This document shows, piece after piece, positions 25,322-31,277 of a DNA stretch of 64,000 bases (its first letter is position 1; the number at the start of each line of letters is the position of its first letter). Origin of the DNA: a virus; the IMG/VR virus record IMGVR_UViG_3300033146_002768, positions 34,305 through 98,304 of that record; one strand, given 5' to 3'. A program made the translations under genes and the position numbers. The notes under the pieces are model-generated. The model worked only from the letters and a program-made list of their open reading frames with translations, was not told the DNA's origin and ran no database searches.

Positions 25322-26052
25322 TTAAAGATATGTTTCATATGATCATAGTGTTTCTTTTAACTATATCATTTATGACAATAATTGGTTGTGTCGATACTTA
25401 TGATGAAACAGATGAAATAGCAAATCAAAGATTTGAAAAGTTCACATCTCAGGAAAAGACTATTTATAAAGCAGTTCAAGATGTATGGGGGCAAAGACCA
25501 TTAAAATATGTTAGAGAAGCAGCAGGTAGAAGAGAAACAAGACCTGCTGAAAACATTTTACCATTTAAAGATATTGCTAATGTTATTAAATCTAATAATT
25601 CAGCATCATTAAAATTAGATGCTGGATGGCAAGCAAGTACCAAGAATAAATATATTAAAGCTCGCTGGGATAGAGTTGATGAAAAATGGTATAGAGAATT
25701 AATGTTGACAATGGGGGTAACTGAAATTGTTAAACAAGATTTGATACCAGAATCTGTAGAAGAAGTTATATCTGATACACCCGAAGTTGAAAAAGAATAT
25801 ATTCCTGCAGTTGTTGAAGAATATAATGATAATCAAGATGAAACAATTAAAATTAATTTAGAGGGAATTATTCCAGAATCTAAATATGATGATCTTTATT
25901 ATGAAATACGACATTGTGATGAAGCAGTATTTACATATAAACAAATAATTGATGATCGTATATTAACTTGGGATGATTATGAATTATTAATTAGAATTTC
26001 AATTAAATGTAAAGCAGTTAATATTTTAAATAAAATGGAGACCAGCAAATGA
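25318..26052 (+). CDS. putative lipoprotein or membrane-anchored protein
   Basis: N-terminal hydrophobic segment MIIVFLLTISFMTIIGC with a lipobox-like IIGC. Confidence 0.4.
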   Translation: MIKDMFHMIIVFLLTISFMTIIGCVDTYDETDEIANQRFEKFTSQEKTIYKAVQDVWGQRPLKYVREAAGRRETRPAENILPFKDIANVIKSNNSASLKLDAGWQASTKNKYIKARWDRVDEKWYRELMLTMGVTEIVKQDLIPESVEEVISDTPEVEKEYIPAVVEEYNDNQDETIKINLEGIIPESKYDDLYYEIRHCDEAVFTYKQIIDDRILTWDDYELLIRISIKCKAVNILNKMETSK

Positions 26053-27092
26053 TAAAAATTATTAAAACATCTGACAGCCACACTATTCGTTTTCGCCCTG
26101 AACATGTTAAATTTGTTGAAACAGATGAATATGCAATCATATTCAATCCTAAAACTGGTGAAGAAATTTTAACTGGTATCAATGGTCATCCCGATCCATT
26201 TGTATTACAATACCCAAGTATGCTTGATATCGGTATCATGGGGCATTGTGACAACGCTTGTACCTTTTGTTACCAAGGGGATAAACATGAACCAAATATG
26301 TCCTTAGATGGATTTAAACTCATTATAGATCAATCTAAAGACTTTGTTAATCAAGTTGCTCTTGGTGGTAGAGGTGATCCAAATCAACATGAATATTTTG
26401 AAGAAATATTAGAATATTGTCAAGCAAATAAGATAGTGCCCAACTATACTACTAGTGGAATTAATCTTACTGATGAACAAGTTTCTATATCAAAAGTTTA
26501 TTGTGGAGCAGTAGCAGTTAGTATGTACAGCAATGCTTATACATGGTCTGCATTAAAAAGATTGATGGATAAAAATATTAAGACAAATATTCATTACGTT
26601 GTTACTAATGATAGCATAGAAGATGCATGTCAGTTGATTCAAGGTAATGATATGTTTGATAGTAAAGTTGATCTTGATAAATTGAATGCAATTGTATTTC
26701 TTTTATTTAAACCTGCTGGTAGAGGTAAAGATTTAGACTGGTCACCAACAACTGACCAGATAAAAGTATTTGCTGAATTAATTAAGAAACCTGATTGTAA
26801 TTTTAAAATCGGAATGGATAGCTGTTTAGTAAATAAAGTTGCTCAAGTTAGAGAGTTAACTAAAATGGAAGAAATGTATGCAGACACTTGCGAAGGAGCA
26901 AGAATGTCGTGTTATATAACTCCTGATGAAAGATTAGTTCCATGTTCGTTTGGCAATCATGATACATATGGACTTGATATTTCAAAGGGTAATCTTAAAG
27001 AAATGTGGGATAATGGCAAACCTTTCAAGGATTTTAGAGAAGTATTAAATAATAAGAAAGCATGTTGCCCGTTCACAGTTATAGGATTTTAA
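26049..27092 (+). CDS. Radical SAM enzyme with C-terminal auxiliary Cys cluster (SPASM/twitch-like), candidate peptide/protein maturase
   Basis: GHCDNACTFCYQG (CxxxCxxC). C-terminal CEGARMSC...PCSFGN...KACCPF. Confidence 0.7.
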   Translation: MIKIIKTSDSHTIRFRPEHVKFVETDEYAIIFNPKTGEEILTGINGHPDPFVLQYPSMLDIGIMGHCDNACTFCYQGDKHEPNMSLDGFKLIIDQSKDFVNQVALGGRGDPNQHEYFEEILEYCQANKIVPNYTTSGINLTDEQVSISKVYCGAVAVSMYSNAYTWSALKRLMDKNIKTNIHYVVTNDSIEDACQLIQGNDMFDSKVDLDKLNAIVFLLFKPAGRGKDLDWSPTTDQIKVFAELIKKPDCNFKIGMDSCLVNKVAQVRELTKMEEMYADTCEGARMSCYITPDERLVPCSFGNHDTYGLDISKGNLKEMWDNGKPFKDFREVLNNKKACCPFTVIGF

Positions 27093-27093
27093 T

Positions 27094-27291
27094 ATGACTA
27101 ATGATAATGAAACATGTCCTAAATGTGGTTCTAAAGATATAAGTTATGAATATGTTTCTTGTATGTGTTGTAGAACATATGAAGGTAATGGTACCACTTG
27201 TTGGACAGTTCCAAAATGTAACAAATGTGGAAAAACAGGAACATACGGAAGTTCTCAAGGAGGATTTTGGGAAAAACCAAAAGGATGGTAA
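27094..27291 (+). CDS. Cys-rich 65-aa peptide (zinc-ribbon-like), candidate substrate or partner of the adjacent radical SAM
   Basis: CPKCGS...SCMCC...C...CNKCGK, nine Cys in total. Starts 2 nt after the radical SAM stop. Confidence 0.5.
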   Translation: MTNDNETCPKCGSKDISYEYVSCMCCRTYEGNGTTCWTVPKCNKCGKTGTYGSSQGGFWEKPKGW

Positions 27292-27292
27292 T

Positions 27293-27724
27293 ATGAAACT
27301 TAAACAAGATTTTATTACAAATAGTTCATCGTCAAATTATCTTGTTTTTATTCCTGAGAATTTTAATTTTTCAAAATTCAAACGTTTAATTGAAAAATAT
27401 GATATAACATATGCTCTTGAAAATAAAGAATGGTTTGATGAAGAAATAGAAACCAAGGAAGATTTTTTAAATGAGTTTGATGATAAATTTGGTGAATTAA
27501 TAAAAGAAGGAGAGATCTGGCAACATAGTATAGCATATGAATCAATAGCAATAGTCTTAGATAAACTTGATTTAGTTATTGGAACATATGAAGGGTCAGG
27601 ATCTAATGATGGAGGATCAATGATTAATATCAACCAAGAAAGCATTAGAAAAAAAATGAAAACTGTAATCTCTGGAGGTTGGGGATTAAAATATGGAGGG
27701 TGGGGTCATGAAACTAAAATCTGA
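27293..27724 (+). CDS. DF-TNSSS family acidic protein, member 1 of 6
   Basis: N-terminus MKLKQDFITNSSSSNY. The ATG overlaps the stop of the upstream gene. Confidence 0.6.
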   Translation: MKLKQDFITNSSSSNYLVFIPENFNFSKFKRLIEKYDITYALENKEWFDEEIETKEDFLNEFDDKFGELIKEGEIWQHSIAYESIAIVLDKLDLVIGTYEGSGSNDGGSMININQESIRKKMKTVISGGWGLKYGGWGHETKI

Positions 27725-28061
27725 TTTTATTACTAATAGTTCATCAGCATCTTTTATTATGTCATTTAAAACTAAAGACAATATAAATCATGACGAGTTT
27801 AGAACTTTGTTTAATAAATATTTGGAAAGTTATAAAAGACAACATCCAAATAAATTAAGATTTTGGGATGCATCCATAATTTCAAAAGGTACTGATGACA
27901 AAGGTGATCTGATTTATACAGTAGAAGATGGAACTACCATGTATAATGATATGCATGATATACCTGAATACATGAGACTATTAATGATTGAATCTTATGT
28001 TAATGAATATGATTGGGGATTTCAAGTTGTTGGGTTTAAAGTAGAAGATGAACACTATTAA
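27708..28061 (+). CDS. DF-TNSSS family acidic protein, member 2
   Basis: MKLKSDFITNSSSASF. GGAGG 7 nt upstream of the ATG at 27708. Confidence 0.6.
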   Translation: MKLKSDFITNSSSASFIMSFKTKDNINHDEFRTLFNKYLESYKRQHPNKLRFWDASIISKGTDDKGDLIYTVEDGTTMYNDMHDIPEYMRLLMIESYVNEYDWGFQVVGFKVEDEHY

Positions 28062-28073
28062 AGGAAAATTAAT

Positions 28074-30060: not shown

Positions 30061-30662
30061 AAAGTTTTTTAAATATAGCTGCAGGTAAGATCAATCCATT
30101 AAAGTTTGAGAATAAGGAATGTTTCTTAGTTCAGTTAGATAAAATGTATTGGGCAATTAATCCACCAAATGTAATTGAAACAGAACATGCCATGTGGTTA
30201 GAGAACCCTAAAGATAAAAATGTTATATGTCATACTGATCTTGATGTTTTTGAATTTCTTGGAAATTATAAATTTCAATTTGATAATATATCATGTTATA
30301 GATTTCTTGAGCACATAACAAAAACTGAAATCCAAACATTTATTTATCTTCTTTCAACTGCATTAAAGGTAGGTGGTGAGCTTGATATCATTGTTCCTAA
30401 TTATGAAACCTTAGCTGATATGATTCTTACTGAGAATCTTGATGATAAAGTTAAACATAGTGATTGGGAAAAACATGATACAATGTTAACGTATGAACTA
30501 TTAAATGAACCATCTATGCCTCATGCATCTATATGGACTCCAGCAAGAATAAGGTATTTCTTTAATTTAGAAGAAAGATTTGAATTGCGGGTGATAGAAC
30601 CAAACTATGAGTTTGATGGAAGAGATTTATATATAAGAGCAGTTTTTAGAAGAATTAAATAA
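30057..30662 (+). CDS. class I SAM-dependent methyltransferase-like protein
   Basis: YRFLEHI...LKVGGELDIIVPN resembles the Methyltransf_11/23 post-motif II. N-terminal NIAAGK. Confidence 0.45.
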   Translation: MKSFLNIAAGKINPLKFENKECFLVQLDKMYWAINPPNVIETEHAMWLENPKDKNVICHTDLDVFEFLGNYKFQFDNISCYRFLEHITKTEIQTFIYLLSTALKVGGELDIIVPNYETLADMILTENLDDKVKHSDWEKHDTMLTYELLNEPSMPHASIWTPARIRYFFNLEERFELRVIEPNYEFDGRDLYIRAVFRRIK

Positions 30663-30777
30663 TATGTCCGACTCCTTTAACAGGTTAGTGCATTTTGTTT
30701 TTTTGAATGTCTGCAAACTCTGCATTAGTTGATTAGTTTGCACTATAAAATGAATTGCTTTTCAACTACTCCACAGG

Positions 30778-30837
30778 TGGAAAGAAAAGCGGGGGATAAT
30801 CCTTTAACAAGAGTTTGCAACCCCCGCACCCTTTCCA
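30778..30837 (+). other. Nested GC-rich stem-loop: outer stem TGGAAAG / CTTTCCA, inner stem GCGGGGG / CCCCCGC, 25-nt loop
   Basis: Read from the sequence. Lies in the 252-bp intergenic region 30663-30914, which also holds an 8-bp palindrome TGCAAACT...AGTTTGCA at 30712-30742. Confidence 0.5.
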
Positions 30838-30864
30838 TTATAATCATTATAAAAATGAGAATTT

Positions 30865-30875
30865 ATATATATTAA
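30865..30875. promoter_or_regulatory. ATATATATTAA motif copy (extended tTATATATATTAAtata), about 40 nt upstream of the ATG at 30915
   Basis: Exact 11-mer recurring in intergenic regions. Confidence 0.4.
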
Positions 30876-30914
30876 TATACATAACATAACACAGATATTT
30901 GTAGGAAAAAAGTT

Positions 30915-31277
30915 ATGAAAAAGAAAATTGATTTTGTGACAAATAGCTCAAGTGTTTCATTTATAATCGCCACTGATAAAGAAGATACTTCATTGAAAAT
31001 TAAGTTAGAAATTGAAGTTGATTTGAGGGATTATATAGTCGCATCATGTTCTACTAAACAAGCTCTTAAAGATTATTGGCTTGATGATATGCATGGTGAT
31101 GATGAAGATGAAGAATATTTGAATTATCAATCTTTAATTGACGAAGGTAAAACTGTTCATTTTCTTGATTGTAGTGATGAAAATGAAACAACAGAAACAT
31201 TACTTTGTTATAAAGGATTAAATGATATTAAATTTCCCGATGACGTTATAGTTATGCAGGGACAAGGAGGTTATTAA
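30915..31277 (+). CDS. DF-TNSSS family acidic protein, member 6
   Basis: MKKKIDFVTNSSSVSF. Confidence 0.6.
   Translation: MKKKIDFVTNSSSVSFIIATDKEDTSLKIKLEIEVDLRDYIVASCSTKQALKDYWLDDMHGDDEDEEYLNYQSLIDEGKTVHFLDCSDENETTETLLCYKGLNDIKFPDDVIVMQGQGGY

What the first reader, a model, noticed from the sequence alone, without database searches (positions are those of the whole stretch)
26049..31277. Radical SAM/SPASM enzyme followed by a Cys-rich peptide and a six-member protein family with an invariant N-terminal motif
Five paralogs sit in tandem directly after the radical SAM gene, and a sixth lies 1 kb further on. All start MK.K.DF[IV]TNSSS.SF. The rest of each protein (117-181 aa, strongly acidic) is highly diverged. 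An invariant roughly 16-aa N-terminus on hypervariable bodies is the signature of a recognition or leader sequence for a modifying enzyme (RiPP-like logic, but on full-size proteins). Alternatively it could be a capsid-targeting or injection signal that is proteolytically removed, as with T4 internal-protein CTS or phiKZ inner-body proteins. The acidic bodies resemble DNA-mimic anti-restriction proteins, which would fit a diversifying anti-defence arsenal. I do not recognise the TNSSS motif from any described family.
Basis: partly seen in the sequence, partly recalled or inferred. Interest (0 to 1): 0.85.

Follow-up and report, generated by a model that had tools for sequence, protein, structure and literature searches.

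The report
Radical SAM enzyme with tagged partner proteins
A jumbo phage encodes a radical SAM enzyme next to six otherwise unrelated small proteins that share one invariant N-terminal tail, and the same enzyme-plus-tail pair recurs in thousands of phages and inside bacterial anti-phage (Avs2-like) operons, which points to an undescribed protein-tagging system used in phage-host conflict.

Summary
A radical SAM gene (26049-27092) is followed by six genes whose products all start M-K-x-K-x-D-F-[IV]-T-N-S-S-S. They run four in a row, then a fifth and a sixth, each separated by unrelated ORFs. The serine codons switch between AGY and TCN, so selection acts on the protein. The six bodies are not hypervariable. 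Each belongs to a different conserved family with no profile-level similarity to the others.

The tail family is large: 4,784 clusters at 50% identity, the motif almost always at residue 1, and no Pfam or NCBIfam model. It is tightly linked to this radical SAM family:
- Viral contigs chosen by motif: 43 of 85 loci carry the enzyme.
- Viral contigs chosen by enzyme: 49 of 80 loci carry the motif.
- About 170 cultured T4-like phages (RB16, KP15) carry both, about 20 kb apart.
- Bacterial loci: 48 of 60 carry the enzyme, mostly in an operon of Avs2-like STAND NTPase, a ~140-aa protein, the tail protein and the radical SAM/SPASM enzyme.

AlphaFold2 shows the tail as a disordered extension. The enzyme model resembles RiPP maturases, SuiB best.

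Best reading: the enzyme recognises and modifies the tail. The modification and its chemistry are untested. A capsid-targeting signal is not supported.

The parts
26049..27092 (+). Radical SAM enzyme (347 aa). It has a small all-beta N-terminal domain (residues 1-43), a CX3CX2C cluster (C67, C71, C74) and a truncated SPASM/Twitch-like C-terminus (C259, C281, C299, C340).
   Evidence: Pfam and PHROG hits. Invariant Cys in 26 homologues. AF2 model at pLDDT 91. Foldseek top hit SuiB, E 1e-13. Loss of the CX2CX5CX3C motif compared with bacterial relatives.
27094..27291 (+). Cys-rich 65-aa ORF (8 Cys, zinc-ribbon-like). It is a lineage-specific insertion and not a conserved member of the module.
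   Evidence: Only weak zinc-ribbon hits. Absent between the radical SAM gene and p1 in L001 and L006. No homologue in 125 related loci.
27293..27724 (+). Tail protein p1 (143 aa, pI 4.8). Tail MKLKQDFITNSSSSNY at 27293-27340. Body family 1, with a conserved C-terminus ...GGWGLKYGGWGHE.
27708..28061 (+). Tail protein p2 (117 aa). Tail MKLKSDFITNSSSASF. Overlaps the end of p1 by 17 nt. Body family 5.
28074..28457 (+). Tail protein p3 (127 aa). Tail MKQKTDFVTNSSSCSF. Body family 9, ending ...MC.
28459..29004 (+). Tail protein p4 (181 aa). Tail MKIKQDFVTNSSSTSF. Body family 3, with a conserved FGDNDG...MDY motif.
   Evidence: Homologues and their alignment. AF2 model at pLDDT 85.7 has a low-confidence tail (mean pLDDT about 48 over residues 1-10; residues 6-11 below 50). 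The fold starts at strand 14-21.
29040..29417 (+). Unrelated 125-aa ORF between p4 and p5. It is syntenic only in close relatives.
   Evidence: Found in 9 of 125 motif-anchored loci and 4 of 80 enzyme-anchored loci.
29427..29882 (+). Tail protein p5 (151 aa). Tail MKQKQDFITNSSSCSF. Body family 2, ending ECWMDG.
30057..30662 (+). 201-aa ORF with weak methyltransferase-like hits. Lineage-specific neighbour, not a core part.
   Evidence: Weak Pfam and PHROG hits. Found in 14 of 125 and 5 of 80 viral loci and 1 of 60 genome loci.
30915..31277 (+). Tail protein p6 (120 aa). Tail MKKKIDFVTNSSSVSF. Its body is homologous to the tail protein of the bacterial Avs2-like operons.
   Evidence: Same BLAST body cluster as 41 bacterial proteins. 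hhalign against the bacterial family gives probability 98% over 98 columns.

Best explanation
The region encodes a two-component protein-modification module: a radical SAM enzyme of the SPASM/Twitch, RiPP-maturase-like class, plus six client proteins.

Each client carries the same 13-16-residue tail, placed exactly at the N-terminus (M-K-[ILV]-[KR]-x-[DG]-F-[VI]-[TS]-N-S-S-S-x-S-[FY]). The tail is a flexible extension in front of the first beta-strand of otherwise unrelated folded bodies.

Proposed mechanism (inferred, not shown):
1. The enzyme docks the tail, probably against its conserved all-beta N-terminal domain.
2. It uses a 5'-deoxyadenosyl radical to modify a residue in the invariant F-V-T-N-S-S-S stretch.
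3. Candidate reactions are a cross-link or cyclophane at Phe-x-Thr, a Ser/Thr oxidation, or an epimerisation. The data do not choose among them.

One enzyme would therefore serve many clients, as one maturase serves many precursors in RiPP pathways, except that these clients are whole proteins.

The module is ancient and mobile. In bacteria a single client and a full-SPASM enzyme sit in operons with an Avs2-like STAND NTPase. In phages the enzyme has lost the second auxiliary cluster, and the tail has been placed on at least ten body families arranged in arrays. I therefore place the phage array in phage-host or phage-phage conflict (counter-defence or host takeover). p6 is the phage counterpart of the bacterial operon's client.
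For: Shown:
- Tail invariance at protein level, with AGY/TCN serine codon switching.
- The family has 4,784 representative proteins. The match starts at residue 1 in about 142 of the best 150. F7, N10, S11 and S12 are invariant in 126 of them.
- Bodies are unrelated. The six window paralogs fall in six BLAST clusters. Only 4 of 91 body-only hhalign pairs reach probability 50. The p4 family and the bacterial family align only over the first 23 columns.
- Linkage to this radical SAM family:
  - 43 of 85 motif-anchored viral loci carry it, 24 with the enzyme's stop codon within 30 nt of a tail gene.
  - 49 of 80 enzyme-anchored viral loci carry the motif, and further loci carry tail variants.
  - 48 of 60 bacterial or archaeal loci carry it, usually in the opposite gene order.
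  - Among 50,697 cultured phage records, the enzyme is in 168 and the two RB16 tail proteins are in 174 and 175, with near-identical genus counts. Record-level overlap was not computed.
- The AF2 tail is low-confidence and precedes strand 1.
- The enzyme model's best PDB neighbours are peptide-modifying radical SAM enzymes: SuiB, PqqE, SkfB, CteB, anSME.
- The N-terminal domain of the enzyme is conserved between the phage and Tissierella versions.

Inferred: that the tail is the substrate, where the modification sits, and the conflict role.
Against: - No modification has been observed.
- The enzyme lacks a canonical RRE (winged helix). It has only a five-strand beta domain.
- It is remote from every characterised maturase. 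The best NCBIfam E-values are about 1e-10, far below cut-offs. The only PDB sequence hit is SkfB at E 0.01.
- About 40% of enzyme-anchored viral loci have no strict-motif gene within 6 kb.
- In T4-like phages the genes lie 20 kb apart.
- The invariant tail contains no Cys or Trp, the residues most characterised SPASM maturases act on.
- The conflict role rests on genomic context alone.
Confidence: 0.6

Rival explanations
1. Docking tag without modification. The tail is a handle by which diverse adaptor or regulator proteins bind the radical SAM enzyme (or, in bacteria, the STAND NTPase). The bodies bring different targets or signals to it. The enzyme's real substrate is something else, such as a host protein, nucleic acid or metabolite.
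For: It fits the same linkage data. The tail is exposed. The bodies are diverse, as adaptors would be. In the KpAvs2 operon the small accessory protein binds the STAND protein and the radical SAM gene is dispensable against one phage (PMC11564622).
Against: A pure docking motif rarely needs 10 or more invariant residues, including three consecutive serines, over this evolutionary range. The closest structural relatives of the enzyme act on the peptide they bind.
Confidence: 0.2
2. The tail is a catalytic or ligand-binding loop of a small-protein family. The N-terminal Ser-rich loop would bind a cofactor or a small-molecule product of the radical SAM enzyme. Linkage would then reflect a shared pathway rather than enzyme and substrate.
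For: The residues are invariant and polar (D, T, N, S, S, S), as in nucleotide- or phosphate-binding loops. Gene linkage is also consistent.
Against: The bodies share no fold or conserved residue that could complete a binding site. The tail lies outside the predicted fold. The motif is tied to residue 1 of the protein.
Confidence: 0.08
3. Capsid-targeting or injection signal, removed by the prohead protease, as with the T4 internal-protein CTS or the phiKZ inner-body proteins.
For: There is a superficial likeness to the T4 CTS (MKTYQEFIAE, from my own knowledge of T4). The window array lies just upstream of the packaging and structural genes.
Against: The same tail occurs in bacterial STAND operons on chromosomes and plasmids, with no capsid genes. 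The tail has no Glu-type cleavage site. Linkage is to a radical SAM enzyme, not to a protease. No virion proteomics were found for the cultured carriers.
Confidence: 0.04
4. Acidic DNA-mimic anti-restriction proteins, with the shared N-terminus only a relic of gene duplication.
For: The window paralogs have pI 4.2-5.1, and 79% of 188 family members have pI below 6.
Against: A duplication relic would decay along with the rest of the protein. Here the tail is invariant while the bodies have no detectable similarity. Fold searches with the p4 model gave only weak or generic helical matches and no DNA-mimic hit. Acidity is common among small phage proteins.
Confidence: 0.05

Closest known systems
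RiPP maturase and precursor systems with SPASM/Twitch radical SAM enzymes (SuiB/streptide, SkfB, CteB, PqqE)
   Same: The enzyme class matches by fold: Foldseek E 1e-13 to 1e-9, TM 0.55-0.70. A conserved N-terminal recognition segment sits on variable remainders. One enzyme is encoded beside several clients.
   Different: The clients are folded proteins of 100-190 aa (some up to 500 aa), not short peptides. The conserved segment is only about 16 residues, starts at Met1, and is probably also the modification site. There is no winged-helix RRE. The tail has no invariant Cys, Trp or Lys-Trp pair. Sequence similarity to any curated maturase family is far below cut-off.
KpAvs2 operon: Avs2 plus Avap1 (radical SAM) plus Avap2 (Bechon et al. 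2024, PMC11564622)
   Same: The bacterial relatives of this module sit directly downstream of an Avs2-like STAND NTPase with a variable N-terminal nuclease or protease domain. The paper lists homologous operons in similar taxa (Nitrospirae, Syntrophobacterales). It also reports a radical SAM accessory gene that does not make viperin-type nucleotides.
   Different: The window has no STAND gene, and neither do 0 of 205 viral loci. The bacterial operon seen here has four genes, not three. I could not obtain Avap1 or Avap2 sequences. Neither small protein matches Pfam DUF6375 with HMMER. Identity with Avap1/Avap2 is therefore unverified.
Anaerobic sulfatase-maturing enzyme (anSME)
   Same: It is a radical SAM/SPASM enzyme that modifies a Ser (or Cys) in a short motif of a full-size folded protein. 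It is a structural neighbour.
   Different: The anSME substrate motif C/S-x-P/A-x-R is absent from the tail. anSME has two auxiliary clusters, while the phage enzyme keeps ligands for one.
FxSxx-COOH and VMAP-type conflict systems: STAND/AP-ATPase plus radical SAM-SPASM plus a small protein with a terminal motif (Kaur et al. 2020, PMC7159879)
   Same: A STAND NTPase is combined with a SPASM radical SAM enzyme and a variable protein bearing a short conserved terminal motif containing Phe and Ser.
   Different: In those systems the motif is C-terminal and is released by a peptidase. Here it is N-terminal. No FxsB-type NCBIfam hit appeared among those listed (in full; only the best 25 of 39 families).
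T4 internal proteins with a capsid-targeting sequence
   Same: A short conserved N-terminal sequence sits on diverse small proteins encoded in variable phage loci (my own knowledge of T4).
   Different: The tail has no Glu-type protease site. The motif also occurs in non-viral operons. Linkage is to a radical SAM enzyme.

Membership tests
Radical SAM superfamily | CX3CX2C motif binding the [4Fe-4S]/SAM cluster within a partial TIM barrel | tested here: met
   C67, C71 and C74 are invariant in 26 homologues. Pfam PF04055 scores E 4e-7, above its cut-off. The AF2 model and its radical SAM structural neighbours agree.
SPASM-domain radical SAM enzymes | Seven-Cys motif CX9-15GX4C ... CX2CX5CX3C ... 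C, ligating two auxiliary clusters | tested here: not met
   The window enzyme and 0 of 127 viral homologues have CX2-3CX5-6CX3C. Only C259, C281, C299 and C340 are conserved. Pfam SPASM is just below its cut-off. The bacterial relatives do meet this feature (36 of 41).
RiPP maturase with an RRE | N-terminal PqqD-like winged-helix recognition element (three strands plus three helices) | tested here: not met
   In the AF2 model residues 1-43 form five beta-strands with no helices.
RiPP precursor | A leader that is recognised and then removed, and a core that is modified | not testable with these tools
   Only genetic linkage and tail exposure are available. Mass spectrometry is needed.
anSME substrates (sulfatases) | C/S-x-P/A-x-R motif | tested here: not met
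   The tail consensus MKIKxDFVTNSSSxSF has no such motif.
KpAvs2-Avap1-Avap2 type defence operon | Radical SAM gene and small accessory gene next to an Avs2 STAND NTPase | tested here: not met
   No STAND gene in the window, in 125 motif-anchored viral loci or in 80 enzyme-anchored viral loci. The bacterial relatives do meet it: 44 of 60 loci have the NTPase, and its only NCBIfam hit is Avs2 at E 1e-13 to 1e-15, below the equivalog cut-off.
KpAvs2-Avap1-Avap2 type defence operon | Orthology of the radical SAM enzyme to Avap1 and of a small protein to Avap2 (DUF6375-like) | tested here: inconclusive
   No Avap sequences are held. No DUF6375 hit at E up to 1 for 32 tail proteins or for 32 of the ~140-aa proteins. 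The paper itself found DUF6375 only with HHpred.
T4-type capsid-targeting sequence | Conserved N-terminal peptide ending in a prohead-protease site (L/I-x-E), on proteins found in virions | tested here: not met
   No Glu in the conserved tail. The tail is present in non-viral operons. Virion content is untested.
DNA-mimic anti-restriction proteins (Ocr, ArdA) | Acidic surface on a fold that mimics B-DNA | tested here: inconclusive
   Acidic pI is met. Fold searches with the p4 model found no DNA mimic. Only one of the six bodies was modelled.

The most novel reading that the evidence does not exclude
The modified tail is a portable functional handle that phages graft onto many unrelated effector bodies, with one enzyme arming the whole arsenal. 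At least one member (the p6 type) mimics the client protein of bacterial Avs2-like STAND operons and so disarms or hijacks that immunity. This would be a new class of post-translationally activated phage counter-defence proteins. It would also mean that a bacterial NLR-like system depends on a radical-SAM-modified protein.
Probability: 0.25. Interest if true: 0.92.

Novelty: new variant of a known kind. Interest (0 to 1): 0.8.

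Why it matters
- Scale. The family has at least 4,784 clusters at 50% identity. It spans phages, contigs binned with archaea, and bacteria of many phyla. It has no Pfam, NCBIfam or PADLOC entry and no functional PHROG annotation.
- New substrate logic. If the enzyme modifies the tail, the one-maturase, many-precursors logic of RiPPs extends to whole folded proteins, and a new radical SAM reaction on an F-V-T-N-S-S-S motif would be defined.
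- Link to immunity. The association with Avs2-like STAND NTPases may explain the unexplained radical SAM accessory gene of the KpAvs2 defence operon. It also suggests that phages carry a matching or opposing module.
- Testability. The module is present in cultured E. coli and Klebsiella phages (RB16, KP15 and about 170 others), so it can be tested directly.

Tried and rejected
- DNA-level repeat or recombination site. Rejected, because the three invariant serines use both AGY and TCN codons among the six copies.
- Cys-rich 65-aa ORF as the enzyme's substrate. Rejected, because it is absent in L001 and L006 and in 125 related loci.
- Neighbouring 125-aa, 201-aa (methyltransferase-like), 244-aa and Band_7 genes as parts of the system. 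Rejected, because they occur in only 2-5 of 80 enzyme-anchored loci.
- Family libraries. Pfam, NCBIfam, PHROGs and PADLOC give nothing for the tail proteins beyond a weak N-terminal match to phrog_7397, which has no known function.
- Megablast of the region against cultured phages found no match.
- tblastn of one family member (P0060) against cultured phages found no match. This was misleading. A direct scan of RB16 found the variant tail MKIRSGFVSNSSSSSF.
- A single-sequence search of GTDB genomes with the enzyme found nothing. The DNA-pattern scan did work.
- Identification of the tail protein or the ~140-aa protein with Avap2/DUF6375. Not achieved.
- Ophion, a radical SAM defence system, is unrelated: it is viperin-like and pairs with PHP and PRTase genes.
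- The promoter and terminator scan was no better than shuffled sequence.
- Virion proteomics for KP15-like phages was not found in the papers read.

Full report
**What is in the window**

The + strand between 26049 and 31277 holds these genes:
- a 347-aa radical SAM gene (26049-27092)
- a 65-aa Cys-rich ORF (27094-27291)
- four contiguous genes: p1 27293-27724, p2 27708-28061, p3 28074-28457, p4 28459-29004
- an unrelated 125-aa ORF (29040-29417)
- p5 (29427-29882)
- a 55-aa ORF and a 201-aa ORF
- after a 252-nt gap, p6 (30915-31277)

All six p-proteins begin M-K-x-K-x-D-F-[IV]-T-N-S-S-S-x-[SN]-[FY], with ten invariant positions. The back-translated motif occurs six times in the window and never in 100 shuffles. 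A relaxed scan adds no further copies. The proteins are acidic, with pI 4.2-5.1. Each of the three invariant serine positions is encoded by both AGY and TCN codons among the six copies. The conservation is therefore selected at the protein level and is not a DNA repeat.

The window belongs to a 207-kb contig. It carries multisubunit RNA polymerase beta-like genes, a large terminase, baseplate genes and a tail sheath, so it is a jumbo myovirus-type phage.

**The bodies are distinct conserved families, not hypervariable**

Two related contigs, L001 and L006, keep the same gene order. Each paralog has an ortholog there with a conserved C-terminus. The p4 subfamily alone has 20 full-length relatives with a conserved FGDNDG...MDY motif.

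I clustered 357 unique family proteins by body (residues 23 to the end). This gave 44 BLAST clusters, and the six window paralogs fall in six different ones. Body-only profile-profile comparison of the 14 largest clusters reached probability 50 in only 4 of 91 pairs, with a median of 0.3. The p4 family and the bacterial family align only over their first 23 columns. The same tail therefore sits on at least about ten body families with no detectable common origin.

**Size and shape of the family**

A 33-column profile of the six N-termini, searched without a word index against 1.84 billion representative proteins, found 4,784 proteins at E up to 0.001. In about 142 of the best 150 the match starts at residue 1. 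The exceptions include tandem fusions and probable mis-called starts. In 126 of these proteins F7, N10, S11 and S12 are invariant, and M1, K2, D6, T9 and S13 are nearly so. Members are mostly 100-190 aa, and 79% of 188 viral members have pI below 6. No Pfam, NCBIfam or PADLOC model matches them. The only PHROG hit is a weak N-terminal match to phrog_7397, which has no known function.

**Linkage to the radical SAM enzyme, tested four ways**

Of 85 tail-gene clusters with at least 1.2 kb of upstream DNA, 43 had a strong homologue of the window enzyme (330-630 bits) upstream on the same strand. In 24 the enzyme's stop codon lay within 30 nt of a tail gene.
2. *Viral loci chosen by enzyme.* Of 80 viral loci, 49 had a tail gene within 6 kb, and 46 of 78 had one downstream on the same strand. 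Several of the apparent negatives carry variant tails: MKIKTDHITNSSSASF, MKRRHSFVTNSSSASF, MKIKTSFVTNSSTCNF. Others carry tail genes elsewhere on the same contig (L247 and L068; L256 with L031, L038 and L040).
3. *Cellular genomes and MAGs.* Of 60 motif loci, 48 have the enzyme, nearly always directly adjacent and usually in the opposite order, tail gene first.
4. *Cultured phages.* The enzyme has homologues of about 29% identity in 168 of 50,697 records. E. coli phage RB16 encodes two proteins starting MKIRSGFVSNSSSSSF (RB16p106 and RB16p111), about 20 kb from its radical SAM gene RB16p156. These two occur in 174 and 175 records, with almost identical genus counts. This is genome-level co-occurrence without adjacency. 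Record-by-record overlap was not computed.

The Cys-rich ORF has no homologue in related loci. The 125-aa, 201-aa, 244-aa and Band_7 neighbours occur in only 2-5 of 80 enzyme-anchored loci. The core of the module is the enzyme plus tail proteins.

**The enzyme**

Pfam recognises the radical SAM core. SPASM falls just below its cut-off. Across 26 homologues the invariant cysteines are C67, C71 and C74 plus C259, C281, C299 and C340. That is enough for one auxiliary cluster.

Bacterial relatives carry the full CX2-3CX5-6CX3C...C motif in 36 of 41 cases. None of 127 viral enzymes does. The phage clade has therefore lost the ligands of the second auxiliary cluster.

The AF2 model (pLDDT 91.3) has a five-stranded all-beta N-terminal domain and no winged-helix RRE. 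Its best PDB neighbours are peptide-modifying enzymes: SuiB (E 1e-13, TM 0.70), PqqE, TigE, SkfB, CteB, then BtrN, viperin, anSME and EpeE. By sequence it is remote from all curated families. The window enzyme is 35% identical (E 3e-55) to that of Tissierella praeacuta, and the similarity includes the N-terminal domain.

**The tail in three dimensions**

The AF2 model of p4 (25 sequences, pLDDT 85.7, pTM 0.81) has low confidence at the N-terminus. Mean pLDDT is about 48 over residues 1-10, and residues 6-11 are below 50. The fold begins with a strand at residues 14-21. The invariant residues therefore form an exposed extension in front of the fold. Fold searches with this model found nothing informative.

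**The bacterial context**

In 44 of 60 cellular loci the pair sits in a conserved operon:
- a STAND NTPase
- a protein of about 120-142 aa
- the tail protein, about 131-139 aa
- the radical SAM/SPASM enzyme

Examples are the isolate Tissierella praeacuta DSM 18095 (L189) and the pAt plasmid of Agrobacterium tumefaciens Ach5 (L191). In the Agrobacterium case the tail is MKLKMDFVSNSSSTSF and an integrase lies nearby.

The only NCBIfam hit of the NTPase is Avs2, at E 1e-13 to 1e-15 and well below the equivalog cut-off. Its N-terminus varies: a SMEK domain, a trypsin-like protease, or none detected. SMEK is described as a nuclease domain in the short-Argonaute literature (abstract listed). One locus also has an Avs1a-like MBL gene upstream.

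Neither the NTPase nor the ~140-aa protein occurs in any of the 205 viral loci or in the window. A third context has no NTPase: a membrane protein, the enzyme, and a 507-aa tail protein with a hydrophobic segment and a coiled coil (L163).

The body of p6 belongs to the same cluster as the bacterial operon's tail protein. hhalign against that family gives probability 98% over 98 columns.

**Relation to published work**

Bechon et al. 2024 (PMC11564622) describe the KpAvs2 operon as Avs2 plus Avap1 plus Avap2.
- Avap1 is a radical SAM protein. It is needed against T2 but not against SECphi18, and no viperin-type products were detected.
- Avap2 is a small protein with an HHpred hit to DUF6375. 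It binds KpAvs2, and its deletion appears toxic.
- Homologous operons are reported in Nitrospirae, Syntrophobacterales and Achromobacter.

This is very probably the same class of operon, but I could not verify it. No Avap sequences are held. HMMER finds no DUF6375 in 32 tail proteins or in 32 of the ~140-aa proteins.

Kaur et al. 2020 (PMC7159879) describe conceptually similar STAND plus radical SAM-SPASM plus terminal-motif peptide systems, but with C-terminal motifs. I found no paper describing the N-terminal TNSSS tail or the phage arrays.

**Interpretation**

The data fit one enzyme recognising a portable N-terminal tail on many clients. Shown:
- the invariance and strict N-terminal position of the tail
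- the unrelatedness of the bodies
- genetic coupling in three contexts, in either gene order, and at genome level
- the predicted exposure of the tail
- the maturase-like fold of the enzyme

Inferred:
- that the tail is the substrate rather than only a docking handle
- the site and chemistry of the modification
- the role in conflict

The capsid-targeting alternative is not compatible with the bacterial operons. The DNA-mimic idea has only acidity in its favour.

I give 0.6 to the modification model and 0.2 to docking without modification. I give about 0.25 to the stronger reading that the phage array is a radical-SAM-armed counter-defence arsenal with p6 mimicking the Avs2-operon client.

Noticed in passing
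L001:6608-8534 (relative of window 26049-27092): In this related phage the radical SAM gene is split into a 177-aa N-terminal ORF and a 223-aa C-terminal ORF by a 238-aa ORF with HNH-endonuclease-like Cys/His motifs. This looks like a homing-endonuclease insertion or an intron within the gene.
   Followed up: no
window 23864-24997; L006:4144-6327: An RtcB-like RNA ligase gene lies about 1 kb upstream of the radical SAM gene. Its ortholog in L006 is 727 aa and carries an intein (Pfam RtcB, Intein_splicing, RtcB). RtcB homologues were found in 8 of 80 enzyme-anchored viral loci.
   Followed up: partly
window 31347-32693: A 448-aa Band_7/SPFH (prohibitin-like) protein with an N-terminal membrane segment and a long charged coiled coil lies directly after p6. 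It is conserved in the close relatives, ahead of the terminase.
   Followed up: no
window 25318-26052: A 244-aa ORF with a lipoprotein-like signal (…LLTISFMTIIGC) overlaps the start of the radical SAM gene by 4 nt. It is syntenic in L006 but rare elsewhere.
   Followed up: partly
L272:17920-20139 (RB16p109); L273:3327-5543 (KP15_100): In T4-like phages the two tail proteins flank a 739-aa vWA/MIDAS protein. vWA proteins are components of the ternary conflict systems described by Kaur et al. 2020.
   Followed up: no
L136, L156, L174, L180: Contigs binned as Thermoplasmatales and Promethearchaeota (Asgard) MAGs carry arrays of 2-5 tail genes. L156 also has a phage-type (truncated) radical SAM enzyme. 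These are possibly archaeal viruses or mis-binned phage contigs. One enzyme homologue (P0199) is labelled Heimdallarchaeaceae.
   Followed up: no
L163:2752-6280: A third context for the pair, in a Firmicutes MAG: a 305-aa multi-pass membrane protein, the radical SAM/SPASM enzyme, and a 507-aa tail protein with a hydrophobic segment right after the tail and a long coiled coil. Similar long tail proteins (367-505 aa) follow the enzyme in L140, L164 and L175.
   Followed up: partly
P0244, P0245, P0246, P0251, P0305: A few database proteins contain two copies of the tail motif, one internal. They look like two adjacent tail genes read as one, either real fusions or missed stop codons.
   Followed up: no
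window 10987-16818: Two large ORFs (906 and 1028 aa) match phage multisubunit RNA polymerase beta-type PHROGs. This places the phage among jumbo phages that encode their own RNA polymerase.
   Followed up: no
L001:3886-5007, L001:9313-9627; L006:1010-1497; window 27094-27291: Several small Cys-rich ORFs with CxxC pairs (weak DnaJ_CXXCXGXG and Anti-TRAP hits in the relatives) are scattered through this genome region. They occupy variable positions between the conserved genes.
   Followed up: no
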